Shown here: piece by piece, positions 11,161-36,566 of the stretch
Numbering within the stretch: the first letter of the stretch is position 1
How the letters are laid out: every line of letters starts with the position of its first letter
Source of the DNA: a phage
Length of the DNA: 59,223 nucleotides
Direction: 5' to 3' (one strand)
NCBI GenBank assembly: GCA_025276375.1
Contig: GCA_025276375.1_3645.1
The notes under the pieces: model-generated
What the model was told of the DNA's origin: nothing
What the model saw: only the letters and a program-made list of their open reading frames with translations
Database searches by the model: none
Translations under genes and position numbers: made by a program

Positions 11161-11475
11161 GTGGAGTTGGATTTGGCGGCATTGTACGGTATCTGCATGG
11201 GTACCGTTGTCCCGATCTGTGTATGGGCTTTCAACCAGTGGCACACCAAATGGAAAGGCATTTCCAAGAGGCTGGATGAACTGGAGAAAGACCTCATCTT
11301 AGTGAAAAACAGTATGGTTACAAAAGATAAACTTGATTCCGTTATCGAGACCCGGTTAAGCAAGCTAGAGGCCGATATTAACGACCTTAAGCAGGATGTC
11401 AGGACAGATGTCTCCGGCATCAGAGCTGATGTACAAAAGATTTTGCACATGCTTGTAGAGCATAGTAAAAGGTAA
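11161..11475 (+). CDS. small membrane protein with C-terminal coiled coil
   Basis: GTG start after AAGAGGAGG; hydrophobic helix 'LAALYGICMGTVVPICVWAF' then heptad-rich tail. Confidence 0.4.
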   Translation: MELDLAALYGICMGTVVPICVWAFNQWHTKWKGISKRLDELEKDLILVKNSMVTKDKLDSVIETRLSKLEADINDLKQDVRTDVSGIRADVQKILHMLVEHSKR

Positions 11476-11484
11476 ACAAAGGTC

Positions 11485-11516
11485 AGAACGGAAAGGACTC
11501 CGTTCTTGCATTTTGT
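11485..11516 (+). terminator. intrinsic terminator (AGAACGG/CCGTTCT stem plus U-rich tail)
   Basis: 7-bp stem with 8-nt loop followed by TGCATTTTGTTCTC. Confidence 0.55.
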
Positions 11517-11534
11517 TCTCTAAAGTGTTAAAAT
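11506..11534 (+). promoter_or_regulatory. sigma70-like promoter TTGCAT-N17-TAAAAT
   Basis: -35 at 11506-11511, 17-nt spacer, -10 at 11529-11534; 31 nt upstream of second fiber gene. Confidence 0.5.
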
Positions 11535-11564
11535 AGTCCTAAGGAATTTTCTCAGGAGAACGTG

Positions 11565-12608
11565 ATGACTAAACCAGTTATCCCTCTTGATATTTGGGCC
11601 AATCAGGATGTTGTGCTTGAAAATACGGGAGAGTTGAATAAATCTCAACCAAAAAAAGAAGAGAGATTGAAAGGTTGGGATATGACACAAAGAATGGCAT
11701 GTGAAGTTGTTAACTTTGAACTTCACATGCTTTCTGCGTGGTTGAAGCATTTAACAGAAGATGTTGTCCCAGGATGGGATAATAGATTCTTAAGGGTCAC
11801 TAATAATCTAGCAGACGTTCCAGACAAAGCTGCTGCACGTCAAGTTCTCAATGTATACTCGCCTGAAGAAATGGACGATCTATATGTTGACAAGTCTGGA
11901 GACATAATGACTCAGACTCAAACTTTAGGTCTCCAAAGAATCGAGTTTGCATCTGCGTCAACAGACAATGCGGCAATATATACTACCATAACTCCAGACA
12001 AGACGACGATGGACTTCTGGATTATGGACAACATCGGTGGTGCTGACGGCACAGACCTTGATGATCCTTCTCACCAAATAGATGGGTTCCGTTGGAGATT
12101 TCAACCTTCTGGTGGGCAGCCTGTGTTTTCGGCTATGAAGCTCAATGCTATAACTGCCAACCGTGCAAGACTGGCTATCCAAGGAAATCTTGAATGCAAC
12201 GATGCAAAAAGTTCCTCTGCAAATGCTAATGCGGTAACGATACCTAGAGCCACTGTTAATGGACAACAATCCTGCGGCAGCGCTCAAATAGGCGGAAGAG
12301 TAGATTGTAACGATAAAACCGCCAGGGGTCAATATGCAACAGTTGGTGGAAGAAACGTGGTCCGCAGGGTAAATGGTAGTAGCGCAGACAGTAGTGGTAA
12401 CCTTACTATTCCTATGCCTAGTAGGGGTGTTGAAGATGTAAGGATAGCAAACCGTTTCAGAACCACCTACAGAGAATCAAGAGTATACCCTGGGCATGTA
12501 ATGTGCTCCGGCAATTACGCCTATAAACACCCGTATCAGGGCGACTATTGGACTGGAGCCATTCAAAAATTTGTAAATGGTCAATGGATCACTATATCTT
12601 ATGCTTAA
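11565..12608 (+). CDS. side tail fiber protein, copy 2 (paralog)
   Basis: ATG 11565 after AGGAG; paralog of 9510-10550 with divergent central region and near-identical termini ('VNGQWITISYA'). Confidence 0.6.
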   Translation: MTKPVIPLDIWANQDVVLENTGELNKSQPKKEERLKGWDMTQRMACEVVNFELHMLSAWLKHLTEDVVPGWDNRFLRVTNNLADVPDKAAARQVLNVYSPEEMDDLYVDKSGDIMTQTQTLGLQRIEFASASTDNAAIYTTITPDKTTMDFWIMDNIGGADGTDLDDPSHQIDGFRWRFQPSGGQPVFSAMKLNAITANRARLAIQGNLECNDAKSSSANANAVTIPRATVNGQQSCGSAQIGGRVDCNDKTARGQYATVGGRNVVRRVNGSSADSSGNLTIPMPSRGVEDVRIANRFRTTYRESRVYPGHVMCSGNYAYKHPYQGDYWTGAIQKFVNGQWITISYA

Positions 12609-24765: not shown

Positions 24766-26226
24766 TTACTTAGCGTACTCGATTAATTCCACAGTTTTCC
24801 CAAAGCTCGGGATATAATTTTTATTATACCCTTCAGTGAGAACCCATAAAGTATCGTACTTTTTCCACTTGTTGTCAACAGCCTTTTGTTCAAAGTTATG
24901 CTCAAAGTATAGGTCGGTCAGGACGATGACATCTTTCGCATTCGGTATGTTGGCATCCAGATACTCGAACACGCAAGCAGCTGTTGTGCCCCATGTTGAG
25001 TGGACCTCATAGTTGATCATTTCGTCTATGTTGCCGCGAGTATATACTTTAACCTCTCCGACTTCAGTTGACCAACAGAACATTGTAACCTTAAACTCTT
25101 TGTACAGATTGCACAATCCGGTGATTTCATTGAACATTTTCTTTAAAGTTCTTTGAGAGATCGAGCCAGAAACGTCTAAAGCCACCACAATATCTATAGT
25201 GTTTTCCGGATTACGACCAGGAACAATAACGTGCTGGTTCTTGTTTATAGCCCCAACTTTTCGCATTGTGCTGGTCAAAGATCCAGATCGACGACCAGGT
25301 TTTCTGTAGGTCAGTTCAGCCTTTCGTTTAGACAACATGCGTTGCTTAATGATGTCTATATAGTTGATTACAGGCTTACCTCTGTTCTTGACAAACTCAC
25401 GCACCGCCTCAGGGCAACGGCCTCCGGACGCTTGCATTGCTGCCTCCAGCATATCACCAGAGTCCTGCATGGCCTGATCTTTATCAGATTGGCTGATTAC
25501 AGGTTGTGGCTGATCATACCCCATAGCCTTTCCAAGATTATCACTGGTGCCACCGTTCCCACTCATGTGATCATCGGTTTGTCGCTTATCACCTTGAGAG
25601 TTCTCACCTTTACCGTTCTTACTTTTACCACTATTCTGATCTCTTTGCTTATCAAGAACTGCATAGACGTTCTCAGCAATCCATCCATGAAACCTCATGT
25701 CGCAGTAGCAGCTGGCTAAGAAACCAAAAGGTTTACCTTTTACGAACGTAGTGCTTTTCCCTTTTGGGAAGAAAACACAAGGAGGCTTGCTAAAGTCAAC
25801 CACAAGGCCTGTGTTGATGACGTGATCACAAGCAATGTTGAACAGTTCCGGTTCAAAGCTTTTACCACGGACCAGGTGATCACAGATAATATGTCCCACC
25901 TCATGTGACAGAAGAAAGGCCACCTCTTTCACAGATTTGGGGGAATAGAAAACCTCAGCCATCTCAAACTGCCCGTCAGTTAGAGAAGCCTTAAGAATAG
26001 CCTTGCGTTCATCAGCCAACCCCATAATGAACTCAGGACTGTAATAGATGCGTTTATGGTCGGTTGCCATGGTGGAGCACCATGTGTGGTTTTCTACGAA
26101 CTGCAACCCTGACAGTAGCGTGCCATAAAACGGCAGCTTTTCAAGAAGATACATACGTGCAGCTTGCAACATTCTCAGGGCATCATCTTTCTGTGAGGCA
26201 ATGATTTCTGAACTTCTGCTATCCAT
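24766..26226 (-). CDS. zincin-like metallopeptidase / von Willebrand factor A domain protein
   Basis: 'HEVGHIICDH' (HExxH) in N-terminal half; 'VVALDVSGSIS' (MIDAS DxSxS) in C-terminal half; start moved to ATG 26226 (GGAG at 5 nt) because ATG 26247 lies in a hairpin loop without SD. Confidence 0.65.
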   Translation of the reverse strand: MDSRSSEIIASQKDDALRMLQAARMYLLEKLPFYGTLLSGLQFVENHTWCSTMATDHKRIYYSPEFIMGLADERKAILKASLTDGQFEMAEVFYSPKSVKEVAFLLSHEVGHIICDHLVRGKSFEPELFNIACDHVINTGLVVDFSKPPCVFFPKGKSTTFVKGKPFGFLASCYCDMRFHGWIAENVYAVLDKQRDQNSGKSKNGKGENSQGDKRQTDDHMSGNGGTSDNLGKAMGYDQPQPVISQSDKDQAMQDSGDMLEAAMQASGGRCPEAVREFVKNRGKPVINYIDIIKQRMLSKRKAELTYRKPGRRSGSLTSTMRKVGAINKNQHVIVPGRNPENTIDIVVALDVSGSISQRTLKKMFNEITGLCNLYKEFKVTMFCWSTEVGEVKVYTRGNIDEMINYEVHSTWGTTAACVFEYLDANIPNAKDVIVLTDLYFEHNFEQKAVDNKWKKYDTLWVLTEGYNKNYIPSFGKTVELIEYAK

Positions 26227-26259
26227 TAAAACTCCAGAAGGGGCCATTGGCCCCTGTCA

Positions 26260-27237
26260 TTATTTAACGTGTTTGAAAATACCTGCCAACTCGGTCATTG
26301 TCATGCGGGTGGTCTTCATAAGATCTGTCATAGCTTTCTCCATAAGTGGAGATACTACCATAAAGTTTCCTTTAGTGAAACCTTTATTCCAGTCGGTCAC
26401 CAACAGTGGTTTAAGTCCAGCTCCGAGACGTTCACCAGTTAAAGCACAGCATTTGCGAATATACGAACTCTTAAATTGGCTGAACGACAGATCAACTTTC
26501 ATACCTGCATCGTAGAACGTTTGACAATAGAAAGTGTAAGCCTTAGCAATCTCAACATCATCAGGCAGTGCAGGAACTTCTTCTGCAATACCCTCTTCGA
26601 CCTCCTGAGGATCTTTTTCCTCTTCAGAGTTCTGTTCTTCAATTTCTTCTGTCACAGTCTCGTTTACGATGTCTGAAATGTGTTTGTTGGCTGCACGATC
26701 AGCCATGAAATTTTTAAAGTCCTGCATTGGTGACATATCTTCCTCCTCTTCGTCAAATAGTGCTAGTTTATCTTCTTCTGTCCCGTATTGCAAGATGAAA
26801 TCTTCAAAAGTATAATCACCTTTCAATTTCTCCATACGCTCTTCGCTCAGGTGGAGCATCATCTGCTGGACAATTTTTCGATCAGTTTTGTCTTTTATCA
26901 AGATTGCAGTCTTTTTATCTACCAGACAGTCCTTCAGAGCGTTGCACCTCAATCCCACCACACAACAATTATCAATTGAGTAAGGACCTTCATCATCTAT
27001 CCGCTCCAGAGATGGATAGAAAGGATTTCCCAGCCCGTTTTCATCTGTGTGCATGTCAAAAGGTATAAGGGTGTAATCGCACACTCCATCTCCTAAAAGT
27101 TTTTTACCAAATAGGAGGTATTCTTCCCATGACAGGTTGAACTCTATATCCCGTTTCCGTGCATTATTCTGTTTGCGTCTATATTTTTTGAGCAGGCGCT
27201 CTAACTCTTCTGGTGTATAATATTTTTCAAGATTCAT
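26260..27237 (-). CDS. hypothetical protein with degenerate HNH-like modules and acidic linker
   Basis: 'ERIDDEGPYSIDNCCVVGLRCNALK' resembles an HNH core with His replaced; Glu-rich central region; start set to ATG 27237 because ORF-track TTG 27303 lies upstream of the inferred promoter. Confidence 0.4.
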   Translation of the reverse strand: MNLEKYYTPEELERLLKKYRRKQNNARKRDIEFNLSWEEYLLFGKKLLGDGVCDYTLIPFDMHTDENGLGNPFYPSLERIDDEGPYSIDNCCVVGLRCNALKDCLVDKKTAILIKDKTDRKIVQQMMLHLSEERMEKLKGDYTFEDFILQYGTEEDKLALFDEEEEDMSPMQDFKNFMADRAANKHISDIVNETVTEEIEEQNSEEEKDPQEVEEGIAEEVPALPDDVEIAKAYTFYCQTFYDAGMKVDLSFSQFKSSYIRKCCALTGERLGAGLKPLLVTDWNKGFTKGNFMVVSPLMEKAMTDLMKTTRMTMTELAGIFKHVK

Positions 27238-27268
27238 GAGTTGTCTCTTGTGCTCTGTAGGTGAAGAA

Positions 27269-27297
27269 ATCTTATCAAGTGCCTCAACAGATGTCAA
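27269..27297 (-). promoter_or_regulatory. sigma70-like promoter for leftward block (TTGACA-N17-TAAGAT on minus strand)
   Basis: reverse complement of 27269-27297; positioned about 30 nt upstream of ATG 27237. Confidence 0.5.
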
Positions 27298-27310
27298 CCT
27301 CAAAAACGTG

Positions 27311-27339
27311 TTGACTTTACCCTAAATCCACGATATAGT
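27311..27339 (+). promoter_or_regulatory. sigma70-like promoter TTGACT-N17-TATAGT for rightward genes
   Basis: -35 at 27311-27316, 17-nt spacer, -10 at 27334-27339; back-to-back with the minus-strand promoter. Confidence 0.6.
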
Positions 27340-27379
27340 GCACCCATTCGAAAGAAAACGAACACAGGAGTACTTAATC

Positions 27380-28279
27380 ATGGCAAATCTTAACAGCTTT
27401 AGCACTCGGTGGAAACAAGATATCACAACCAATCTCTCAGCAGGCGATATCCTTTCTGCAATTTACGAGGCTTTGGATGATAAAGCTACTTCAAAAGCGG
27501 TTTGTACCAACCCACTAATTCCTGTAGTGATGAAGGTTATTGAGCGTAGATTGGTATCTGGGTCTGATAAGTGGACATATTTAGATAATGAAGGACACAC
27601 CTATTCCAATGGGTACGTCGATATAAAAGTAGAATACGCGGTATCATACCGCCGGAGCGGTTCTGTAACTTTCAACTTCTCTGGAGGTTTTCGATCTCTG
27701 GCTACCTCACCTTTTGTTTCCTCAGAGGAGAAGTATGAGCTTCCATTTCTTTGGATGATGGCTAACGCGACAGGAAAAACCCCCGTTAGCATCCGAGTAA
27801 AATACAACTACAACGGATCTAGTAAGATCTATGCCGAGAGTGTCTCAGCAAGTTTTTATTTTGTGATGGGGGATGGAATCCTCAAACATATAAAGATGTG
27901 CGATATGCATGATGTTATAAATGAAGTGACTGATAAGAATGTTCTGGTGAAGGATCTCAACAATTTTTATACACCCGGAGACTATTACGTCAGCCGTCCA
28001 CTGTGCATCTTTAATGCCGCACACCCTCTAGGTGAGTATTTGATCGCCAATAGCGATATTGCCAATAACCGCTTCGAGGTAGCAAGAGTACAGAATGAGG
28101 TATTGACATCTTGCAAGAGCGGTGATAAGTTTACCGAAGAAGAGATGGGTGTTTTAGAAATGATGGGATATAAGTGTAGCCTTTGGGTAGATGAGGTGTT
28201 TAATGATTGCATCTATGGACAGGATATTTACCCATTAAAGAAGTATACTGATTCCAGTTTAATTTACGCGGAGATTTGA
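27380..28279 (+). CDS. hypothetical protein (299 aa)
   Basis: ATG 27380 after AGGAG; ORF-track GTG 27338 overlaps the -10 element and was rejected. Confidence 0.45.
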   Translation: MANLNSFSTRWKQDITTNLSAGDILSAIYEALDDKATSKAVCTNPLIPVVMKVIERRLVSGSDKWTYLDNEGHTYSNGYVDIKVEYAVSYRRSGSVTFNFSGGFRSLATSPFVSSEEKYELPFLWMMANATGKTPVSIRVKYNYNGSSKIYAESVSASFYFVMGDGILKHIKMCDMHDVINEVTDKNVLVKDLNNFYTPGDYYVSRPLCIFNAAHPLGEYLIANSDIANNRFEVARVQNEVLTSCKSGDKFTEEEMGVLEMMGYKCSLWVDEVFNDCIYGQDIYPLKKYTDSSLIYAEI

Positions 28280-28281
28280 CT

Positions 28282-28554
28282 ATGATGAAGTCATGTGGTA
28301 GTGTATATTATGTTGGTGAGAATGTTCAGGCAGATAGTGTGTGGAAATCCATTAAGTCCACCACCGATGATGCCTTTCTGAGCGGGTTATGCTTTCCCAG
28401 CCCAGGGGACACTCTCCCTTACCCTGGAGATTTTGTTGTCAACAAGATGGACGGTTATACCGTGTGCCTGATGGTTGAAAAAATCTTTTTAGACACTAGA
28501 CACAATCACCGTCTTGTGTTAAAATTTCAAGAATGTAAAATGACAATTGCCTAA
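28282..28554 (+). CDS. hypothetical protein (90 aa)
   Basis: ATG with GGAG SD. Confidence 0.4.
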   Translation: MMKSCGSVYYVGENVQADSVWKSIKSTTDDAFLSGLCFPSPGDTLPYPGDFVVNKMDGYTVCLMVEKIFLDTRHNHRLVLKFQECKMTIA

Positions 28555-28567
28555 GGAGACCTTGCCG

Positions 28568-28924
28568 ATGTCTAAAGTTACTTATCGTGCAGCTATTTAC
28601 TGCAATGAACACCCAATCTATAATGATGGTCACTGCCTTTTTAAAGAAAATCAATTGGGCTGTATTGTCCTCCCTGATGAAGGTGAAGGTTATCTGATTG
28701 CGTTGACAGGGTTTGAACCTGAAGCTCTGGAAGCCAATCTTGACTACCTGGTAGAAGAGGGTGCTGCAGACCTGGTTGCCAATGGCCTATCCGTAAGCCT
28801 TGATGAAGTGGAGCGCTTCATGGGCAATTACCGTGTAGTGCGTGAGTTTACTATCGAGGTGGAAACTCCAGAGTGGGGTAGCACTGAAACTAATGCCGAA
28901 GAAAAAGAAGAGGAGGTAGAATAA
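28568..28924 (+). CDS. hypothetical protein with acidic C-terminus
   Basis: ATG 28568, AAGGAG at 9 nt. Confidence 0.45.
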   Translation: MSKVTYRAAIYCNEHPIYNDGHCLFKENQLGCIVLPDEGEGYLIALTGFEPEALEANLDYLVEEGAADLVANGLSVSLDEVERFMGNYRVVREFTIEVETPEWGSTETNAEEKEEEVE

Positions 28925-29181
28925 TGAAAGTGCAGATCTTGACTAATGCCGAGAAGATGTTTATTGAAGATACACCTTTTGAAGCTGGTGAGCTACAGTT
29001 CGTTTATTTTGTTGACTTAGATAAGGTGTTCCCTGCACTGAATCTGGGTCTGGATGAAGTTCCTCATAAGGTTTTGTGCCAAGTTGTTCGTGCCTTAGCG
29101 GCAGAGGGGGAGTTCCACACCCTTCAAGATATCCAGACCTACGGGTATCTTGAACTACAACGAGAAGAAGAGGTGGACTGA
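28924..29181 (+). CDS. hypothetical protein (85 aa)
   Basis: ATG overlapping upstream stop. Confidence 0.4.
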   Translation: MKVQILTNAEKMFIEDTPFEAGELQFVYFVDLDKVFPALNLGLDEVPHKVLCQVVRALAAEGEFHTLQDIQTYGYLELQREEEVD

Positions 29182-29183
29182 TA

Positions 29184-29564
29184 ATGGCTCAGTGGAAGAC
29201 AACAGTTGACCTTCATGATCAGTGGTTAGGACGCATCACTGAAGACGGGAAGTTAGTTGAGTGGGACAATAAGCATGTTAGCGAGTTGGCAAGTATTGTG
29301 GCTGGCAAGTTACGATCCAAGTTCCCTGAACAACTGGATCCTGATAGTTCAAAGTTCGATCCTGAGTTGGAGGATGTTGTATACTACTTCGACACCGTGG
29401 ATGACTACGATGCGTGGTTTGCAGCACGGGAGCTTTACCCACAAGGATCTGCTATGCGCCAGATGGAAGAAGATTATCCTCCGTGCGAGCAATTCAATAG
29501 TGCAATGACTTGCCTCTACGATTGGGCAGATAAGAACCTTGTCTGGATTCGGACTGCATTTTAG
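29184..29564 (+). CDS. hypothetical protein (126 aa)
   Basis: ORF with ATG. Confidence 0.4.
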   Translation: MAQWKTTVDLHDQWLGRITEDGKLVEWDNKHVSELASIVAGKLRSKFPEQLDPDSSKFDPELEDVVYYFDTVDDYDAWFAARELYPQGSAMRQMEEDYPPCEQFNSAMTCLYDWADKNLVWIRTAF

Positions 29565-29608
29565 TGGGCAGGAATGGCGGCAAGGATGCTGCTTAAGGAG
29601 TAGTAGAG

Positions 29609-29878
29609 ATGTTATACCAGCAATATGAACTTCGTGCAGAAAAAGAGTTAAATTTTGACAAAGATATTCACAGATATTATTATGGGAAAGTTAGAGGGCA
29701 AGCAAGAAAGTGTACTCCAACACTCTTTTATGCCAGCAGACGACTAGCGCCAGAAGAGGCAACAGCAGAAAGGGTTGCGTACAACTGGAGAGTCACGTAT
29801 GATATTGACAGATCCGATGTGATATCTGTTTTGGAAAACTTTGAAAACACTTACACACAAGTAGAGGACTTTTACTAA
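29609..29878 (+). CDS. hypothetical protein (89 aa)
   Basis: ATG with AAGGAG SD. Confidence 0.4.
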   Translation: MLYQQYELRAEKELNFDKDIHRYYYGKVRGQARKCTPTLFYASRRLAPEEATAERVAYNWRVTYDIDRSDVISVLENFENTYTQVEDFY

Positions 29879-31062
29879 TGTCAAGAAACGTATTTGAAAG
29901 TGGTCAAATCACTGTCCGTGAGTTGCCAGCTATCATTCAGTTTGCCCAGCGTCATAACCGATCTGTCCTGATTTTAGGACCAATGGGCGTGGGAAAGAGC
30001 CAGGTGATGAAGCAGATCGCTGATAATATGTTCGGTGAGCGAGATGACAACCTTGTTGACGTGCGACTGTCAGATAAAGATCCTGCCGACTTATCTGGGC
30101 TACCTATTCCTGTAGAAGCGGATGGAACTACACGTACAGTGTTTGCAATTCCAGAATTTTGGCCTGCGGATCCTGACTGGAGCGGAATTATCTTTCTGGA
30201 TGAGCTCACTCATGCAGATAACTACCTGCAAAAGGTTGCAATGCAAATTATGCTCGACCACAAGTGCGGTACCTATGCATTCCCTAAAGGTTCTGTTTTT
30301 GTGGCTGCTGGTAACCGTTCTACAGATGGTGCGGTTCTTTCGGCGCTCGAAGCCCCTCTGGCTAACCGTTTTATCATTGTAGAAGTTACAAGCAATGCAG
30401 AGGTGTTTATTGAGGACTACGCATTCCTTAATGGGGTGCACTCCTCTGTAATTGGATATTTGAAAAGAGTTCCATCAGCTATCGATAATTATGAGGCTAT
30501 GGCTGAGATTAATTGTCCATCTTTTGCCACACCACGATCTTGGGTTGCTGCATCTGACATCTTGCACGATTTTGACAGCGGTATTATTTCTGACGCTATG
30601 GCCCGTGTTCTTCTGCAAGGTGCTATTGGTCACACTGCAGCGGTAGAGATCTGGACTTACCACACCAAGAAACGTAACTTACCGGAAATCGGTCGGATTA
30701 TGGCAGGAGGTTGCAAAGAATATGTAGGTCCTAAACAGCCAGACATCTTGTGGATTCTTGGATCTGAAGGTTGTATCGCTATTCGTAATATGATGGAAAA
30801 TGCAAGTATCTCCGACGAAGATCTTGTTAGCTGTGTGGCAAACTTCCTCGATTTCCTTTGGGAAAATTTCAAGGACGAGAACCGAGATTTTGTATTCTCA
30901 GTCTTTATGGCGATGATGAAACCTAATGCCTTAGGAAATGCCTTGCTTATCGGTAAAGGGCGTGACAAGATTGTTGCTCAGCTGATCAAAGCATACCCAA
31001 ACCTAATGAAGATTGTAAAAGAGTTTGGTGAAGAGTTTAGCGCCATTTTGGCTAAAGCTTGA
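29878..31062 (+). CDS. MoxR-like AAA+ ATPase (CbbQ/NorQ/CobS-type)
   Basis: Walker A 'GPMGVGKSQ', Walker B 'IIFLDELTHA', sensor 'AAGNRS'. Confidence 0.7.
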   Translation: MSRNVFESGQITVRELPAIIQFAQRHNRSVLILGPMGVGKSQVMKQIADNMFGERDDNLVDVRLSDKDPADLSGLPIPVEADGTTRTVFAIPEFWPADPDWSGIIFLDELTHADNYLQKVAMQIMLDHKCGTYAFPKGSVFVAAGNRSTDGAVLSALEAPLANRFIIVEVTSNAEVFIEDYAFLNGVHSSVIGYLKRVPSAIDNYEAMAEINCPSFATPRSWVAASDILHDFDSGIISDAMARVLLQGAIGHTAAVEIWTYHTKKRNLPEIGRIMAGGCKEYVGPKQPDILWILGSEGCIAIRNMMENASISDEDLVSCVANFLDFLWENFKDENRDFVFSVFMAMMKPNALGNALLIGKGRDKIVAQLIKAYPNLMKIVKEFGEEFSAILAKA

Positions 31063-31500: not shown

Positions 31501-32001
31501 GTGAAAATTAAGATCTTTGCTATTATTTTGAGCGCACTTTTATCGCTGCCTGTTGTTGCAGCACCAAAACAAAAAGTATATCATACTTGCAAGCCATCGG
31601 ATACTAAGGAAAACATTCTGGCATGCAATATCTACAGGGAAGCTAGAGGAGATGGCACGATGGGTATGCTGGCATCTGGGTTTGCCACCCTAAACAGGAA
31701 ATCTCATCCCAAATACCCGGACACTATAAGAAAGATTGTCTACCAACCTAATCAGTTTTCGTGGACAAACTACGGCAAAACTTTTAAGGTGACAGAAAAA
31801 GATTCATGGGATCACGCTAAAAGTCTTGCAAAGATGCTTCTAAAGGTCTATAATAACAACCATGTTGCATACATGGCTATGGATATAACAGGTGGAGCAA
31901 CACACTACCATACGACCAAAGTACGACCGAAATGGGCAAAAAAGATGCAGAGGACAGCTCAATTCGGGAGTCATATCTACTACAAGGAGCGCAATAAATG
32001 A
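31501..32001 (+). CDS. secreted SleB-like cell wall hydrolase
   Basis: signal-peptide-like N-terminus 'MKIKIFAIILSALLSLPVVAAP'; 'NIYREARGDG...ATLNR...QFSW' resembles the SleB/Hydrolase_2 core. Confidence 0.45.
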   Translation: MKIKIFAIILSALLSLPVVAAPKQKVYHTCKPSDTKENILACNIYREARGDGTMGMLASGFATLNRKSHPKYPDTIRKIVYQPNQFSWTNYGKTFKVTEKDSWDHAKSLAKMLLKVYNNNHVAYMAMDITGGATHYHTTKVRPKWAKKMQRTAQFGSHIYYKERNK

Positions 32002-33980
32002 TTGTAAACAGTAATGAAACTAAAGCAGTGCTAACTGGAAATATGGAGGTCACCAGGGGCTCAATTTCTCTGAACAAAGAGACTTTTGGGCTAATCATTA
32101 AAGGGATTTACGAAGATAAGGTGCTGGCAAGCTGCCGTGAACCAATCTTCAATGCTGTGGACTCTCATGTTGAGTCTGGACGGGGTGATGTACCGATCAT
32201 CATTCACTCTCCTACAGACCTTGAACCATACTTCTTTGTGCAGGACGTTGGATTAGGCATGTCAGAAGAGATGGTCCGCAACACTTTCATGAACCTCGGA
32301 GAGTCAACCAAGCGCAACAGCAACGCTCTGGTGGGTAATAAAGGTGTTGGTTCAAAGGCCCCGTTCAGCATGGTGGACACTTTCGATGTGATCAGTGTAC
32401 ACAATGGTGTTGAAAGCACATATCTATTGTTCTTGGATCAGGGTATCCCAAACGTTACCAAAATCCGCGAGCGGAAGACCGAAGAGCACAATGGGGTAAA
32501 AGTTCAGTTCCATGTTAAGAAAGAGCATGTTCTGAAATATCGCACTGCTATTGCATCATGCCTACGCTATGCAAAGTTTCCGTTTACCGTTACCGATCCT
32601 ATGACCAATAAGATGCTGGAAGGTGACAAGGTTGAGGCGCAGTATCGCTACGAGAAAGATGGTTGGAAAATGACCATCCTAAAGGGCTATACCAGCTCTG
32701 ACGAGAGTCGCGTGGTAATGGGTCACCAACCTTACCGTTCTAAGTTCCTGGAGACATTAACAGACTACCCTGCAATCTGTGTAGAGATCCCTATCGGGGA
32801 TTGCAATATTAACCCTGGGCGCGAATGGACCATAGAGGGGCACGACGATGGTGGATTCCAAGAGCGGTTGGAGGCCTTTGTCAAAGAAGGTATACGTCTT
32901 CGCGGGGCAGAAGTTGTTGCAGAACTGGAGACGGCAAAAACCTCCGCAGAAGCACGTGAAATGATGAAGAATAGTGGAGTGTTCGGGCACATCTTCGGTA
33001 AGAATTTTATGTATGACCGCTGGGAAGAAACAGGGCTAGGGAATTTGGGGGACTGCGAGATCTTCGCTGGCGGCTTAAATAAAGGCCGCATAGGTTACGC
33101 CTGCTACGGAAAGGTAGAATTCTTACGGGGAGTTTATTTAGTATTTAACGACGGAGACGGCAAATATAACCGGAATAAGTGTAACTACTTAAGCGAGATC
33201 ACCGGACGCAACGTTTTCTATTGCCGTAACACGGATCTGGTGAAAGAGTTTAAAGAGGCGGCACACCATCCGTTTTTTGCAGATACGGTCAAATTGTTAT
33301 CTGAGCTTCCACGCCGACCTACGAAGAAAGGTGAAACCAAAACCCGTTACGAACCAGGCTATTGGGTTAAAAAACTTGAGAAGGATGGTTACTTCCGGCG
33401 TGAGCGTATTACTAAGGCAGAGTTCAGGAAGATTAAGTACTGCATTCCCTACGAGGGGGATATCCAACGTGGAAGTTGTTGGCTGGGACAGCTGAGTAAC
33501 ATCTACCAGCAAAATTATGACCGTGTGCGTGCGGCACTCCAGATTCCTGAAGGGGAAGATCTGTACCTGGTATCGGAATCTCGTCTGCTTTGGACTGATC
33601 CTGATTGCCAGTATGTTACAGAGAAGAATGTGGAACATTTGTTGAAAGAGGATGCTTGGAAATTCTTACTGACTCGCGCAGCAAATGAAACTTCATATGA
33701 CAGCCTGTATAGACAATTAGGGAAAATTATTCCCATGCAAGATTTTGGAAATTATCGGCCACATTTCCACAAGTGGGAAGGTAACACCGCGTGGAAGCAC
33801 AGTGAGCTAAATCATCGTGCCAAAATCTTAATCGCCAACCGAGTTAAATGCGGGAAGGCCTATATTGCAAGATTGGAAAAGAAATACCCACTTTTGAAGC
33901 ATGTAGGCTTGAAATATTGGGACACTCCTGCTATGATTGAATACCGTGAACTGATCGATACAAAGAATAACATCAAATAA
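31998..33980 (+). CDS. rIIA-like protein with GHKL-type ATPase domain
   Basis: Bergerat-fold motifs 'FNAVDS' (N box), 'VQDVGLGM' (G1), 'GNKGVGSKAPF' (G2); 660 aa; phage context. Confidence 0.5.
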   Translation: MIVNSNETKAVLTGNMEVTRGSISLNKETFGLIIKGIYEDKVLASCREPIFNAVDSHVESGRGDVPIIIHSPTDLEPYFFVQDVGLGMSEEMVRNTFMNLGESTKRNSNALVGNKGVGSKAPFSMVDTFDVISVHNGVESTYLLFLDQGIPNVTKIRERKTEEHNGVKVQFHVKKEHVLKYRTAIASCLRYAKFPFTVTDPMTNKMLEGDKVEAQYRYEKDGWKMTILKGYTSSDESRVVMGHQPYRSKFLETLTDYPAICVEIPIGDCNINPGREWTIEGHDDGGFQERLEAFVKEGIRLRGAEVVAELETAKTSAEAREMMKNSGVFGHIFGKNFMYDRWEETGLGNLGDCEIFAGGLNKGRIGYACYGKVEFLRGVYLVFNDGDGKYNRNKCNYLSEITGRNVFYCRNTDLVKEFKEAAHHPFFADTVKLLSELPRRPTKKGETKTRYEPGYWVKKLEKDGYFRRERITKAEFRKIKYCIPYEGDIQRGSCWLGQLSNIYQQNYDRVRAALQIPEGEDLYLVSESRLLWTDPDCQYVTEKNVEHLLKEDAWKFLLTRAANETSYDSLYRQLGKIIPMQDFGNYRPHFHKWEGNTAWKHSELNHRAKILIANRVKCGKAYIARLEKKYPLLKHVGLKYWDTPAMIEYRELIDTKNNIK

Positions 33981-33990
33981 GGAGACCAAG

Positions 33991-35196
33991 ATGATTTTCA
34001 TCTACGAACATTTCAAAACCCGTAAAGAAGCACGAGACCGCCGTGCAGAACTTGAGAAGAAGGGTTTCACATGTGCCATTGAGAAAGGCGACACAACCTG
34101 GACACTGGCAGTTGGTGCCCCAGAGTTGTTCGATCCTGACCGTGACAGCGTCTGCTACACCCGTGAAGATTTTGAAACCCGCGAAGAGGCCCGTTTATTT
34201 CGATACGGTCTGGAAGATAACGGTAAGTACGCCATGATCTTAGATTTAGGCGAAGGGTCCGTTAAACGTTGGGGCGTGGTATACCCACTGTGTGTTGTTC
34301 ATGGTGTGGGGTTCACTGGGGTAGCAATCAAGTCAGAAGAACCTTTAGTAGAAGTCAAAGATCCGGTGCTGGAGGTGGTGAGCAGTGTATCTCAGCAACA
34401 GACTCGAAGTATTGAGCCTTTGGTAGTTATTTGTGGGGAACTCCTCCAGATCACCTGCAACGAAGGCATTTTTGAAATTCGCCGCAGCGAAAGTGAGGAA
34501 GTTTACCAGAAAGTCTTCGACCATATCTCTGTTCAGGAATATGATGAGGCAATTGGTGAAATCCTTGTCTGGCTGGAACGCAAGAATGAGTTCACCACAC
34601 TTGCAGACAACCTGGTCATGAAAGATGGTAAGCTCTACTACTACGGTGTAGAGATGCGATCCACCATTGCAAAGAAAATTGAGAAAGATTATGCAGACGG
34701 AACACTGGATGACCGCTATGTGAAATTCCTCGTTCGCCTGCTGCGCAATCCTTCTGCAAAATCTGTAAACATGCTCTACGATTTTATGCAGGCCAACGAT
34801 ATCCAGATTGCAGAAGATGGTCGAATCATTTGCTACAAAGGGGTTCAGTTTAACGGCAGCAAGTGGGTGGATTGGCACAGTGGTAAAGTTCCACAATACC
34901 AGGGGGCTTTTGTATCCATGCCTCGTAACTTTGTAGAGGATGATCCGGAAGCTGCGTGCTCCTATGGCTTACACTGCGCCAGCAAAGAGTATGCAAAGAG
35001 CTACGGCACTGTAATGACTGTTATGGTTGACCCTGCAGATGTGGTTAGTGTGCCATACCAACACAATGGCGCTAAGTGCCGTGCATGCCGCTATGAGATT
35101 GTGGTAGCTCCGGAAGCACGCAAAGATGGAGACCCTATTGAATATGTAGTTGATCGTGACGGTAACACTATCGACATTCTTTACGAGGAGGCGTAA
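33991..35196 (+). CDS. hypothetical protein (possible rIIB-like partner), duplicated ~40-aa N-terminal module
   Basis: adjacent to rIIA-like gene; internal repeat 'F[KE]TR[KE]EAR...G...' seen twice; no diagnostic motif. Confidence 0.3.
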   Translation: MIFIYEHFKTRKEARDRRAELEKKGFTCAIEKGDTTWTLAVGAPELFDPDRDSVCYTREDFETREEARLFRYGLEDNGKYAMILDLGEGSVKRWGVVYPLCVVHGVGFTGVAIKSEEPLVEVKDPVLEVVSSVSQQQTRSIEPLVVICGELLQITCNEGIFEIRRSESEEVYQKVFDHISVQEYDEAIGEILVWLERKNEFTTLADNLVMKDGKLYYYGVEMRSTIAKKIEKDYADGTLDDRYVKFLVRLLRNPSAKSVNMLYDFMQANDIQIAEDGRIICYKGVQFNGSKWVDWHSGKVPQYQGAFVSMPRNFVEDDPEAACSYGLHCASKEYAKSYGTVMTVMVDPADVVSVPYQHNGAKCRACRYEIVVAPEARKDGDPIEYVVDRDGNTIDILYEEA

Positions 35197-36566
35197 TGGA
35201 AAAAGGGCAGTATGATGTAGGCACAGATGCTGCCCTCGTTGCAATCATGAGTGGTGAGAATGTCTTCGTTTCAGGACCTGCAGGTTGTGGGAAGACGTAT
35301 CTCATCAACATGATCCAGTCAATGTATGGAGACTCTTGCATAACGGTTGCCCCGACAGGGGTAGCCGCTTTAAACGTTAATGGAGCAACAGCACACCGAA
35401 CCTTCGATCTTGCAGCAGGTGTGAGCATGGAGTCAGACTGGACCGCAATAAGGGCAAAAACAGCAAAGCCTTTGAAAAGCAAGGCATTTACCATCCTGAT
35501 TATCGATGAAATCTCTATGATCCGTGCTGATAAGTTTATAGAGATGGATAGGAAACTCCGCTTCCTTCGAAAAAATGACAAACCTTTCGGAGGCATACAG
35601 GTAATATTGTTTGGCGATTTTTACCAGGCACCTCCTGTTGTCTCTTCTATGGAGAAGGAAGCCTACTTCAACTTCTACCATACGGACCTGTGTTGCTATA
35701 CCGAATCTTGGAAAGAGCTTGACCTCCACAACATAGCCCTAGTAGATCAGTTCCGACAGGAGTCTATTCGATTTGCCACAATGCTCAACTGTGTTCGTGA
35801 GGGTCGTCGCATAAAAGAGGTTGTAGCAGAACTTAATGCTCGCTGTTACAAAGGCGGCGTACCAACAGATGCTCTCACAATTTGCGCCACCAACAAACAA
35901 GCAGAGGAAGTAAACAGAAGGTTCTATGATGCCATCAACGCCCCAGAGAAGGTATACACTGGTGAAATGAAGGGTAAGTTTCCCTCCACCCTGCCAGTTG
36001 AGCAGGAGATGAAGTTGAAAATTGGTATGAAAGTTATGATAACCGCCAACGATGTTGACCCGACGCACAAGGTACCTTATTATGTTAACGGAACACGTGC
36101 CACAATTGTTAAATTTAAGAACAAGGCGGTGGTGGTAGAGCTTGAAGATGGAACACAGGTTGACATAGAGCAGAGGTTGTGGGAGAATAACGAGTATAAG
36201 CCATCTCAGAGATACAACATTGCAGAAAGGAAGATGGAGAAGTTTATAGAGAGGGTAGTGATTGGGTCATACAAGCAACTTCCTCTGAAATCTGGGTACG
36301 CCGTAACATCTCATAAAAGTCAAGGGCTTACGCTAGATTGTTACAACCTAGACCTTGGAAAGAACGGAGCTTTCTCTCCTGGGATGACGTATGTCGCTTT
36401 GAGTAGAGTTAAGACAATACAAGGAATAAACTTGTTGCGTCCACTAAGAGAAGTTGACATTATTGTTGACCCGCGAGTCGTAGAGTTTTACAATACAACA
36501 TTCCCTGACTTAGACAAAATTGTCAGGAAAGATTTTGAAACCAGAGCAGAAGAGGGGGACGTATGA
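35196..36566 (+). CDS. dda: Dda-like SF1B DNA helicase
   Basis: Walker A 'GPAGCGKT', Walker B 'IIDEISM', 'GDFYQ', 'YAVTSHKSQGLT', 'YVALSRVK'. Confidence 0.75.
   Translation: MEKGQYDVGTDAALVAIMSGENVFVSGPAGCGKTYLINMIQSMYGDSCITVAPTGVAALNVNGATAHRTFDLAAGVSMESDWTAIRAKTAKPLKSKAFTILIIDEISMIRADKFIEMDRKLRFLRKNDKPFGGIQVILFGDFYQAPPVVSSMEKEAYFNFYHTDLCCYTESWKELDLHNIALVDQFRQESIRFATMLNCVREGRRIKEVVAELNARCYKGGVPTDALTICATNKQAEEVNRRFYDAINAPEKVYTGEMKGKFPSTLPVEQEMKLKIGMKVMITANDVDPTHKVPYYVNGTRATIVKFKNKAVVVELEDGTQVDIEQRLWENNEYKPSQRYNIAERKMEKFIERVVIGSYKQLPLKSGYAVTSHKSQGLTLDCYNLDLGKNGAFSPGMTYVALSRVKTIQGINLLRPLREVDIIVDPRVVEFYNTTFPDLDKIVRKDFETRAEEGDV

What the first reader, a model, noticed from the sequence alone, without database searches (positions are those of the whole stretch)
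24766..31062. MoxR-type AAA+ ATPase and its usual VWA partner encoded on opposite strands in different transcription units
MoxR/CbbQ-type ATPases normally pair with a VWA-domain protein, often in one operon. Here the VWA protein also carries an N-terminal HExxH zincin module (24766-26226, minus strand), while the ATPase (29878-31062, plus strand) lies about 3.6 kb away across a divergent promoter, with five small unknown ORFs in between. The pair may form a chaperone/protease module of unknown target.
Basis: partly seen in the sequence, partly recalled or inferred. Interest (0 to 1): 0.5.

Follow-up and report, generated by a model that had tools for sequence, protein, structure and literature searches.

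The report
Split phage MoxR ATPase / VWA-protease pair
An rV5-like E. coli phage carries a known two-gene ATPase-plus-protease module that an ancient inversion placed on opposite strands, and a recent transposon screen suggests the phage uses it to get past a bacterial defence system rather than to build virions.

Summary
The window is a Vequintavirus (rV5-like E. coli myovirus).

- **Gene 24766-26226 (-)** encodes a 486-aa protein. It has an N-terminal HExxH domain (Pfam DUF2201_N) and a C-terminal VWA domain with a complete MIDAS motif (Pfam DUF2201).
- **Gene 29878-31062 (+)** encodes a 394-aa AAA+ ATPase. Its predicted fold is closest to NorQ and CbbQ, which are MoxR-class ATPases.
- **The two genes are a cognate pair.** In 69 of 80 environmental phage loci the ATPase gene is followed directly, on the same strand, by the VWA-zincin gene; the other 11 contigs end too soon to tell. 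The same order holds in phage N4 (gp24/gp25), jumbo phages, Certrevirus CR9 and bacteria.
- **The split is derived.** An inversion of the ATPase-containing block separated them in the Vequintavirus, Seunavirus and Mydovirus lineages. Both genes now flank one back-to-back promoter-like region.
- **The pair is not new.** Iyer et al. (2021) described it in jumbo phages, and GenBank records already name both genes.
- **Functional data exist.** In phage Bas54, both orthologues are dispensable on E. coli K-12. Both are depleted on the clinical strain CFE311 (ATPase log2FC -7.2, VWA-zincin -2.2). The ATPase is required against defence system DS-28.

Verdict: new member of a known kind, probably an accessory counter-defence remodeller/protease. 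Moderate interest.

The parts
24766..26226 (-). Gene for the 486-aa zincin-VWA protein (orthologue of bas54_0055 / bas57_0054, annotated 'putative metallopeptidase'); the stop codon is 24766-24768.
   Evidence: ORF. Pfam DUF2201_N and DUF2201 above cut-offs. phrog_1314 E=1e-122. GenBank annotation. AlphaFold model pLDDT 83.
25627..26226 (-). N-terminal, mostly helical zincin-like domain (aa 1-200). The HExxH motif (H108 E109 H112) is encoded at 25891-25905. H117, R120 and D134 follow and are candidate third zinc ligands.
   Evidence: H, E, H, H117 and D134 are invariant in 61 sequences. Pfam PF13203. Weak profile matches to MJ1213, BepA and HtpX around the HExxH helix. Fold searches did not resolve this domain.
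25543..25626 (-). Low-complexity Gly/Ser/Asn/Lys/Gln linker (aa 201-228), predicted disordered.
   Evidence: pLDDT below 50 for residues 201-228. Length is variable and the segment is absent or different in homologues.
24769..25329 (-). C-terminal VWA domain (about aa 300-486). MIDAS motif D351-x-S353-G-S355 is encoded at 25162-25176, with T414 and D438. It is preceded by a conserved RPxRR motif (R312, R313).
26260..27237 (-). Upstream gene in the same minus-strand unit (annotated 'anti-sigma factor'; phrog_3118). It is the first gene after the divergent promoter region and is conserved next to the VWA gene in Seunavirus GAP31.
26239..26255 (.). Perfect 7-bp GC-rich hairpin (AGGGGCC-AAT-GGCCCCT) in the 33-nt spacer between that upstream gene and the VWA-zincin gene.
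27238..27379 (.). Divergent intergenic region with back-to-back sigma-70-like promoter matches, whose -35 elements lie 14 bp apart. It would serve both arms.
   Evidence: Consensus matches only; no transcript data were found.
27380..29878 (+). Six plus-strand genes between the promoter region and the ATPase gene (299, 90, 118, 85, 126 and 89 aa). The last one overlaps the ATPase start codon (TAATG).
   Evidence: No Pfam hits for any of them. All were non-essential and unaffected on CFE311 in the Bas54 screen.
29878..31062 (+). Gene for the 394-aa MoxR-class AAA+ ATPase (orthologue of bas54_0063). Walker A aa 34-41 (29977-30000); Walker B aa 104-109 (30187-30204); sensor-1 N146; Arg finger R164; sensor-2 R220. 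Beta-hairpin inserts lie at aa 75-90 and about 129-135. There is an extra helical C-terminal region, about aa 270-394.
   Evidence: invariant motifs; model; NorQ/CbbQ top hits; profile hits midasin AAA modules, E=2e-8; relatives carry Pfam AAA_3/AAA_5.

Best explanation
The two genes encode the two halves of one machine. One half is a hexameric MoxR-class AAA+ ATPase. The other is its VWA-domain cofactor, which carries an N-terminal HExxH zinc-peptidase domain.

Proposed mechanism, by analogy with NorQ-NorD: the VWA domain docks on the ATPase ring, ATP hydrolysis pulls on and remodels the cofactor and its bound target, the MIDAS site or neighbouring surface holds the target, and the zincin domain cuts it.

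In Vequintavirus the module is an accessory, early or middle expressed, host-specific function. Most likely it inactivates or remodels a component of a bacterial defence system (DS-28 of E. coli CFE311). It is probably not a virion-assembly factor.

The separation onto opposite strands is a historical inversion. Both genes remained beside one bidirectional promoter region, so co-expression is probably kept.

Shown: domain identities, motif conservation, ancestral adjacency, the inversion, dispensability on K-12, and depletion of mutants in both genes on CFE311.

Inferred: physical complex formation, proteolysis, the target, and co-timing of expression.
For: Partnership:
- The ATPase gene is followed directly by the VWA-zincin gene on the same strand in 69 of 80 IMG/VR loci. 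The other 11 contigs end at most 1.65 kb after the ATPase gene.
- The same order is found in about 150-kb metagenomic phage contigs, in gammaproteobacterial chromosomes, in N4 gp24/gp25, in Certrevirus CR9 gp126/gp127 and in phage A73.
- Counts per host genus match in the phage database: Escherichia 212 vs 214, Pectobacterium 26 vs 26, Cronobacter 17 vs 17.
- The two proteins diverge in step between lineages: window-GAP31 50% vs 47%; window-CR9 35% vs 36%; A73-CR9 69% vs 63%.

Competence:
- Walker A/B, sensor 1, Arg finger and sensor 2 are invariant in 60 ATPases.
- HExxH and MIDAS are invariant in 61 cofactors, including the split lineages.

Class:
- NorQ and CbbQ are the best structural matches for the ATPase.
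- NorD VWA is among the matches for the cofactor.
- The NorQD mechanism is described in PMC13036017.

Function (HIDEN-SEQ preprint 10.1101/2025.11.20.689424):
- bas54_0063 (ATPase) is one of two genes required to overcome cloned DS-28.
- In the supplement, both genes are non-essential on K-12: transposon hits at 60 of 64 and 81 of 86 TA sites.
- On CFE311 the ATPase has log2FC -7.23 (q reported as 0.00000, i.e. below 1e-5) and the VWA-zincin -2.20 (q=0.009). All nine flanking genes are unaffected.

Position: both genes sit in blocks led by sigma-70-like promoters, beside rIIA/rIIB and replication genes. N4 gp24/gp25 are middle genes.
Against: - The VWA-zincin phenotype on CFE311 is about 30-fold weaker than the ATPase phenotype.
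- The preprint names a different second factor, bas54_0140 (99 aa, outside this window), and did not test the VWA-zincin knockout on cloned DS-28.
- CFE311 differs from K-12 in more than DS-28, so the VWA-zincin depletion may have another cause.
- No direct evidence exists for a complex, for peptidase activity or for a substrate.
- The zincin fold rests on Pfam plus motif conservation only.
- The pair is a core gene set of N4-like phages. That fits a general function better than a response to one defence system.
- The functional data come from one unreviewed preprint, and its supplementary sheet S6 is mislabelled.
Confidence: 0.5

Rival explanations
1. Functional uncoupling. After the inversion the two genes no longer work together in Vequintavirus. 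The ATPase acts against DS-28 with the small protein bas54_0140 as its partner, and the VWA-zincin has a separate role or is on its way to loss.
For: The preprint identifies bas54_0063 and bas54_0140, not bas54_0055, as the anti-DS-28 genes. Depletion on CFE311 differs by 5 log2 units between the ATPase and the VWA-zincin. The genes are in different transcription units. The ATPase is more conserved within the genus: at least 99% identity in 110 records, against 95-99% for the VWA-zincin in 117 records.
Against: Both genes are intact in more than 115 Vequintavirus genomes. HExxH and MIDAS are invariant in the split lineages. The two proteins diverge at equal rates between split and unsplit lineages. 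The VWA-zincin is significantly depleted in the same host while its neighbours are not. Every studied MoxR ATPase works with a VWA partner (PMC13036017, PMC9976466).
Confidence: 0.22
2. Virion-assembly chaperone plus maturation protease, as Iyer et al. proposed for the jumbo-phage pair by analogy with Acidianus two-tailed virus p618/p892.
For: This is the published proposal for the homologous pair in group 2.2 jumbo phages (PMC7824862).
Against: Both genes tolerate transposon insertions at about 94% of TA sites in Bas54 on K-12, whereas the prohead protease, scaffold and capsid genes tolerate none. Both lie outside the structural gene block, behind sigma-70-like promoters among early and replication genes. 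N4 gp24/gp25 are middle genes. The PA5oct mass-spectrometry list also contains 'virion-unrelated enzymes'.
Confidence: 0.1
3. Metal-cofactor insertion or enzyme activation, as for NorQ/NorD, CbbQ/CbbO or the CobS/CobT and BchI/BchD chelatases. The target would be a phage or host metalloenzyme, for example a ribonucleotide reductase.
For: The closest solved structures are NorQ and CbbQ and NorD and BchD VWA domains. A bacterial homologue pair lies two genes from a ferrochelatase and next to a thioredoxin.
Against: None of those systems carries a peptidase domain on the VWA partner. The invariant HExxH argues for catalysis by the cofactor itself. The requirement is host-strain specific rather than metabolic. 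Gene neighbourhoods differ between the bacterial examples.
Confidence: 0.08
4. General host-takeover protease. The module degrades or remodels housekeeping host proteins early in infection, and the DS-28 phenotype is an indirect consequence.
For: Early or middle genomic position. Core status in N4-like phages. Wide distribution across unrelated phage groups and hosts.
Against: There is no fitness cost of loss on K-12. The phenotype appears only on a particular clinical strain and on the cloned defence system.
Confidence: 0.1

Closest known systems
MoxR AAA+ / vWA-metallopeptidase pair of group 2.2 jumbo phages (Iyer, Anantharaman, Krishnan, Burroughs & Aravind 2021, Viruses 13:63; examples ASV44729.1 and ASV44728.2)
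   Same: Same two protein families and the same domain architecture: an ATPase plus an N-terminal metallopeptidase fused to a VWA domain. tblastn with the window proteins finds both in Atu_ph07 at adjacent coordinates (VWA 202271-203512, ATPase 203748-204749; E=2e-26 and 1e-27) and in other jumbo phages.
   Different: Here the phage is 137 kb, not a jumbo phage. The genes are on opposite strands 3.65 kb apart. Transposon data argue against the virion-assembly role proposed there.
Phage N4 gp24 (AAA+ ATPase) and gp25 (vWFA protein), core genes of Schitoviridae
   Same: Homologous pair. The window VWA-zincin hits N4 at 11212-12198, inside gp25, with E=6e-14. Both HMMs hit adjacent N4 ORFs. Function unknown; non-structural middle genes.
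   Different: Only about 22-27% identity. Adjacent and co-directional in N4. The N4 proteins are shorter (352 and 380 aa).
NorQ/NorD and CbbQ/CbbO (CGN group of MoxR ATPases with VWA cofactors)
   Same: Best structural matches for the ATPase: 9qh4, 9qh7, 6l1q and 5c3c, E about 1e-8, TM 0.6-0.66 on the target. NorD VWA is among the matches for the cofactor. It is a two-component ring-plus-VWA arrangement in which a VWA finger enters the pore.
   Different: NorD and CbbO have no peptidase domain, and they serve metal insertion or Rubisco reactivation. The phage ATPase has an extra C-terminal helical region of about 120 aa. Sequence identity is only 16-22%.
FtsH-type AAA+ zinc metalloproteases
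   Same: They combine an AAA+ motor with an HExxH zinc peptidase. This is a useful functional analogy for ATP-coupled proteolysis (my own knowledge, not tested here).
   Different: In FtsH both activities sit in one membrane-anchored polypeptide of a different AAA+ clade. Here they are two soluble proteins bridged by a VWA domain, and no homology between the peptidase domains was shown.
Acidianus two-tailed virus p618 (MoxR) and p892 (VWA)
   Same: A viral MoxR-VWA pair, cited by Iyer et al. as the precedent.
   Different: An archaeal virus, with no peptidase domain and a role in extracellular tail development. Homology was not tested here.

Membership tests
MoxR-class AAA+ ATPase | Walker A, Walker B, sensor-1 Asn, arginine finger and sensor-2 Arg all present | tested here: met
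   GPMGVGKS (aa 34-41), IIFLDE (aa 104-109), N146, R164 and R220 (in FATPRSW) are invariant in 60 homologues.
MoxR-class AAA+ ATPase | Passes the Pfam AAA_3 (PF07726) or AAA_5 (PF07728) gathering threshold | tested here: not met
   For the window protein, AAA_5 scores 16.7 bits against a cut-off of 22, and AAA_3 is not reported. Relatives at 31-35% identity do carry precomputed PF07726/PF07728. Membership by sequence is therefore only transitive.
MoxR-class AAA+ ATPase | Fold closest to solved MoxR ATPases, with helix-2 insert and pre-sensor-1 beta-hairpins | tested here: met
   The model has pLDDT 87.6, with hairpins at aa 75-90 and about 129-135. The top 16 Foldseek PDB hits are all NorQ or CbbQ2. 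cso-CbbQ and MoxR 2r44 are also listed. The profile search hits midasin AAA modules, E=2e-8.
MoxR-class AAA+ ATPase | Encoded next to a VWA-domain partner | tested here: inconclusive
   Not adjacent in this window (3.65 kb apart, opposite strands). Adjacent in 69 of 80 related loci and in CR9, A73, N4 and bacteria.
VWA domain with MIDAS | DxSxS...T...D metal-ion-dependent adhesion site | tested here: met
   D351, S353, S355, T414 and D438 are invariant in 61 sequences.
VWA domain with MIDAS | Rossmann-like VWA fold | tested here: met
Pfam DUF2201_N + DUF2201 (putative metallopeptidase / VWA-like) | Both Pfam models above their gathering thresholds, in this order | tested here: met
   97.2 bits against a cut-off of 23.2, and 43.7 bits against 26.4.
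Zincin metallopeptidase | HExxH on a helix plus a third zinc ligand | tested here: inconclusive
   HExxH is invariant and lies on predicted helix 99-114. H117 and D134 are invariant candidate third ligands. Which one binds zinc could not be determined. The H112-H117 spacing is not the metzincin spacing.
Zincin metallopeptidase | Zincin fold of the N-terminal domain | tested here: inconclusive
   Fold-search lists were filled by VWA hits. Only weak profile matches to MJ1213, BepA and HtpX were found, E 0.03-0.7.
Zincin metallopeptidase | Metal-dependent peptidase activity | not testable with these tools
   Needs biochemistry.
Phage anti-defence factor (anti-DS-28) | Loss of the gene sensitises the phage to the cloned defence system | not testable with these tools
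   Reported for the ATPase orthologue bas54_0063 in a preprint. The window region is 96.6% identical in DNA to Bas54 (MaxBurger). This was not reported for the VWA-zincin. That gene is, however, depleted on the source strain CFE311 (log2FC -2.20, q=0.009).

The most novel reading that the evidence does not exclude
The MoxR ATPase and its VWA-zincin cofactor form an ATP-driven counter-defence protease. It is conserved across N4-like podoviruses, rV5-like myoviruses and jumbo phages. The VWA/MIDAS module, possibly with small adaptors such as bas54_0140, captures host immune proteins such as DS-28A or DS-28B, and the zincin destroys them. This would give a function to the long-unexplained N4 core genes gp24 and gp25, and would define a new mechanistic class of anti-defence system.
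Probability: 0.25. Interest if true: 0.75.

Novelty: new member of a known kind. Interest (0 to 1): 0.4.

Why it matters
The MoxR/VWA-zincin pair is one of the few non-structural, non-replication modules shared by N4-like, rV5-like and jumbo phages and by bacteria. Its function has never been shown.

Two points make it testable. First, the split Vequintavirus genes are the same cognate pair. Second, an existing transposon dataset shows mutants in both halves depleted on the same clinical host. The direct experiment is to plate VWA-zincin deletion and active-site mutants on DS-28.

If the module is a counter-defence protease, it would matter for phage therapy. Vequintaviruses are common therapy candidates. 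It would also help explain how MoxR-VWA machines select their targets.

If it is not, the finding is an ordinary, already annotated gene pair rearranged by an inversion.

Tried and rejected
- **Single-sequence PDB search.** For the ATPase it gave only generic P-loop hits to ClpB/ClpC. For the VWA-zincin it gave nothing. Profiles and structure prediction were needed.
- **NCBIfam and PADLOC.** Neither had informative hits. I therefore dropped the idea that the phage proteins mimic a known MoxR/VWA-type defence component.
- **The search for related loci with the VWA alignment.** It failed in both collections because no stretch was conserved enough. I used the ATPase alignment and scanned the flanks with a local HMM instead.
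- **Literature.** No paper links rV5 with MoxR. 'DUF2201' occurs in only four papers, none functional. No Vequintavirus transcriptome was found. The CRISPRi-ART paper and two other phage transposon papers do not mention the pair. The nature of DS-28 could not be established.
- **bas54_0140.** It has no homologue in the window.
- **Two IMG/VR loci with room after the ATPase gene but no VWA hit (L029, L077).** They carry other ORFs and then end. They look like insertions, as in PA5oct, rather than true absences.
- **Start codon at 26247.** Rejected in favour of 26226.

Full report
**What the window is.** The 6.3-kb region matches 122 phage records at 90-99% DNA identity. Nearly all are Escherichia phages of the genus Vequintavirus (rV5-like myoviruses of about 136 kb), for example vB_EcoM_YN3, BP9 and the BASEL phages Bas54 (MaxBurger) and Bas57 (MaxTheCat).

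The window layout is as follows:
- 1-20.3 kb, plus strand: tail-fibre genes.
- 20.3-27.3 kb, minus strand: a block of mostly small genes that ends with the VWA gene and an 'anti-sigma factor'-like gene.
- From 27.3 kb, plus strand: six genes, the ATPase, a SleB-like hydrolase, rIIA, rIIB, a helicase and replication genes.

The minus-strand gene scores above Pfam's curated thresholds for two models. These are DUF2201_N ('putative metallopeptidase', E=1.6e-27) and DUF2201 ('VWA-like', E=3.6e-11). It has a GGAG 7 nt upstream. The longer ORF's ATG at 26247 lies in the loop of a perfect GC hairpin (26239-26255) in the spacer after the preceding gene.

The plus-strand gene encodes a 394-aa P-loop protein. 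By Pfam it reaches only sub-threshold AAA scores (AAA_5 16.7 bits against a cut-off of 22).

Seven genes lie between the two, not five. They are a 325-aa minus-strand gene, a 299-aa plus-strand gene and five ORFs of 85-126 aa.

The 142-bp gap between the two inner genes (27238-27379) holds back-to-back sigma-70-like matches. On the minus strand this is TTGACA-17-TAAGAT with an extended TG. On the plus strand it is TTGACT-17-TATAGT, followed by AGGAG and the ATG. These are consensus matches only, and I found no transcript data for this genus.

**Is the ATPase MoxR-type?** Yes, although not by the Pfam score of this protein alone.
- Homologues fall into a continuous series. Below about 35% identity they carry precomputed Pfam AAA_3 (the MoxR model), AAA_5 and sometimes bpMoxR.
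- Across 60 homologues, the Walker A, Walker B, sensor-1 Asn (N146), Arg finger (R164) and sensor-2 Arg (R220, in FATPRSW) are invariant.
- A profile of the family hits the AAA modules of midasin best (E=2e-8).
- The AlphaFold model (pLDDT 87.6, pTM 0.74) shows two beta-hairpin inserts, at aa 75-90 and about aa 129-135. From my own knowledge these are typical of the MoxR/dynein clade.
- The 16 best PDB matches of the model are all NorQ or CbbQ2. cso-CbbQ and the MoxR protein 2r44 also appear.
- About 120 C-terminal helical residues have no counterpart in NorQ.

**Is the other protein a zincin-VWA fusion?**
- In alignments of 21 and 61 homologues reaching about 20% identity, these residues are invariant: H108, E109, H112, H117, A132, D134 and the full MIDAS set D351, S353, S355, T414, D438. 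Numbering follows the 486-aa protein.
- The model (pLDDT 83) has three parts. There is a helical N-terminal domain with HExxH on helix 99-114, a disordered low-complexity linker (aa 201-228), and a C-terminal alpha/beta domain.
- The zincin fold of the N-terminal domain was not resolved by fold search. It rests on Pfam, on motif invariance, and on weak profile matches to MJ1213, BepA and HtpX.
- Whether H117 or D134 is the third zinc ligand is open.

**Are they partners?** This is the strongest result.
- The nearest relatives of the ATPase outside the subfamily sit directly upstream of a DUF2201_N+DUF2201 gene on the same strand. This holds in several phage-like metagenomic contigs of about 150 kb.
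- Bacterial DUF2201 genes (Sulfurivermis fontis and a gammaproteobacterial MAG) directly follow an AAA_5 ATPase gene.
- I retrieved 80 IMG/VR loci through the ATPase alone. In 69 of them the VWA-zincin gene comes next on the same strand, with a median gap of about 70 bp. In 9 of the rest the contig ends within 215 bp. In the last 2, other ORFs follow and the contig ends after 1.1-1.6 kb.
- In the annotated phage collection the two proteins occur in the same groups with nearly equal counts per host genus.
- They are adjacent in N4 (gp24/gp25), Atu_ph07, pEa_SNUABM_47 and S6. In LIT1 and YH30 they are co-directional, about 0.7 kb apart. In PA5oct, three small ORFs and a homing endonuclease lie between them.

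**How the split arose.** Within Vequintavirinae, Certrevirus CR9 (gp126 ATPase, gp127 VWA) and phage A73 keep the adjacent arrangement. There the pair lies just downstream of a divergent promoter region and an HD-phosphohydrolase gene.

In Seunavirus GAP31, the block from the HD-phosphohydrolase gene to the ATPase gene is inverted relative to the VWA gene. The result is ATPase(-)...HD(-) | HNH-like(+), small ORF(+), VWA(+).

The window has the GAP31 arrangement in mirror image, and so does Mydovirus KpS11. One inversion with a breakpoint between the two genes explains this. It also leaves both genes near the new bidirectional promoter region.

The two proteins have diverged in step since then: 50% vs 47%, 35% vs 36% and 69% vs 63% identity for three lineage pairs. 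Both are intact in more than 115 Vequintavirus genomes. There is therefore no sign of decay after the split.

**What is already known.**
- GenBank records already call these genes 'MoxR ATPase' and 'putative metallopeptidase' or 'VWA-like domain containing protein'.
- Iyer et al. [quoted passage not shown] They proposed a role in virion assembly with proteolytic processing (PMC7824862).
- N4 gp24 and gp25 are listed as core genes of N4-like phages, with unknown function and middle expression (PMC4193335, PMC7650795).
- For the mechanism of MoxR-VWA machines, the 2026 NorQD structures are the best guide. They show a finger from the VWA domain inserted in the ATPase pore, and the NorD C-terminus contacting the post-sensor-1 loop. 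ATP hydrolysis remodels a NorD linker (PMC13036017).

**Functional evidence.** The HIDEN-SEQ preprint (10.1101/2025.11.20.689424) mutagenised Bas54, whose DNA is 96.6% identical to this region.
- The text reports that bas54_0063 (the MoxR ATPase) and bas54_0140 (unknown function) are required to overcome DS-28. DS-28 is a predicted two-gene defence system of the uropathogenic strain CFE311.
- In the supplementary tables, both bas54_0063 and bas54_0055 (the VWA-zincin) are 'non-essential' on K-12. Insertions hit 60 of 64 and 81 of 86 TA sites.
- In the K-12 versus CFE311 comparison the ATPase has log2FC -7.23 (q reported as 0.00000, i.e. below 1e-5). The VWA-zincin has -2.20 (p=0.0009, q=0.009).
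- The flanking genes bas54_0053, 0054, 0056-0062 and 0064 are all unaffected.
- Sheet S6 is labelled CFE303, but its command line and numbers are those of CFE311.
- The authors do not comment on bas54_0055 and did not test it on cloned DS-28.
- bas54_0140 is a 99-aa protein encoded about 38 kb downstream of the ATPase gene in Bas54, and it has no homologue in this window.

**Interpretation.** Dispensability on K-12, the position among early and replication genes, and the separate essential prohead protease all argue against the virion-assembly proposal for this phage.

The host-specific requirement points to counter-defence. I therefore favour an accessory ATP-driven remodeller/protease in which:
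- the VWA domain docks on the ATPase ring, with the conserved RPxRR segment before the VWA core as a candidate pore finger (inference);
- the MIDAS site or adjacent surfaces hold the target;
- the zincin domain cuts it.

The weaker VWA-zincin phenotype and the involvement of bas54_0140 keep a serious rival alive. In that rival the ATPase now works with another partner. A third possibility is that CFE311 depletes VWA-zincin mutants for a reason unrelated to DS-28.

**Verdict.** The split is a lineage-specific inversion and not a new architecture.

The added value is threefold:
- a demonstration that the split genes are the cognate pair;
- the link between rV5-like, N4-like, jumbo-phage and bacterial versions;
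- an overlooked signal in published data that makes the function directly testable.

Noticed in passing
window 24766-26226 (-); PHROG phrog_1314; GAP31_033, CR9 gp127 and others: The VWA-zincin protein is widely mis-annotated. PHROGs labels its family 'HNH endonuclease'. GenBank records call it 'HNH endonuclease', 'anti-sigma factor', 'DNA repair ATPase' or 'gp25-like protein'. Pfam and the invariant motifs show it is DUF2201_N + VWA.
   Followed up: partly
window 26239-26255: A perfect 7-bp GC hairpin (AGGGGCC-AAT-GGCCCCT) lies in the 33-nt spacer between the 'anti-sigma factor'-like gene and the VWA-zincin gene. On the minus strand it is followed by TCTGGAGTTTTAATG. It could be an attenuator, an RNA-stability element or a processing site within the minus-strand unit.
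   Followed up: no
window 29655-29683 and about 29805-29832 (+), inside ORF 29609-29878: A near-consensus sigma-70 match (TTGACA-17-TATTAT, 11 of 12) lies 195 nt upstream of the ATPase start, inside the preceding 89-aa ORF. The ECML-10 record annotates a different 'Sigma70-type promoter' about 46 nt upstream of the ATPase start. The ATPase may therefore have its own promoter. The 89-aa ORF also overlaps the ATPase start codon (TAATG).
   Followed up: partly
window 35196-36566 (+), orthologue of bas54_0068 'DNA helicase': In the HIDEN-SEQ supplement this helicase is non-essential on K-12 but strongly depleted on CFE311 (log2FC -6.32, q reported as 0.00000, i.e. below 1e-5). That is as strong as the MoxR ATPase, yet the preprint text does not discuss it.
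   Followed up: no
window 27380-28279 (+): Many records annotate this gene as 'putative alpha 1-3 fucosyltransferase'. It has no Pfam or NCBIfam hit, only a PHROG of unknown function (phrog_12338). The name looks unsupported.
   Followed up: partly
window 26260-27303 (-): The 'anti-sigma factor' gene matches PHROGs named HNH endonuclease, endonuclease VII, Srd anti-sigma factor and 'decoy of host sigma70' over its N-terminal third. It has a strongly acidic middle segment. It stays next to the VWA-zincin gene in Seunavirus GAP31 (GAP31_031, 40% identity) but is absent from the unsplit CR9 arrangement. It may have arrived with, or after, the inversion.
   Followed up: partly
Supplementary file 689424_file10.xlsx of bioRxiv 10.1101/2025.11.20.689424: Sheet 'Data S6: resampling_K-12_vs_CFE303' contains the TRANSIT run for CFE311 (the console line uses B54_2_311). 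Its numbers are identical to sheet S7. The real CFE303 comparison for Bas54 is not in the stored file.
   Followed up: yes
L098 (PA5oct MK797984.1 234078-235193): The PA5oct orthologue of the ATPase carries the GenBank note 'ESI-MS/MS', meaning it was detected in purified particle preparations. The paper says its 93 mass-spectrometry hits include 'virion-unrelated enzymes', so the meaning is unclear.
   Followed up: partly
L007 (Sulfurivermis fontis AP018724.1), L008/L009: The bacterial ATPase/DUF2201 pairs lie in a conserved neighbourhood with Hsp15-like and thioredoxin genes upstream. In one genome a ferrochelatase and Lon lie downstream. This is a possible hint of a stress or proteostasis role for the cellular versions.
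   Followed up: no
window 31998-33980 (+), rIIA: rIIA gives weak NCBIfam matches to HSP90-family and sacsin-type GHKL ATP-binding domains (E about 4e-4 to 7e-4). This is consistent with an N-terminal GHKL-like fold.
   Followed up: no
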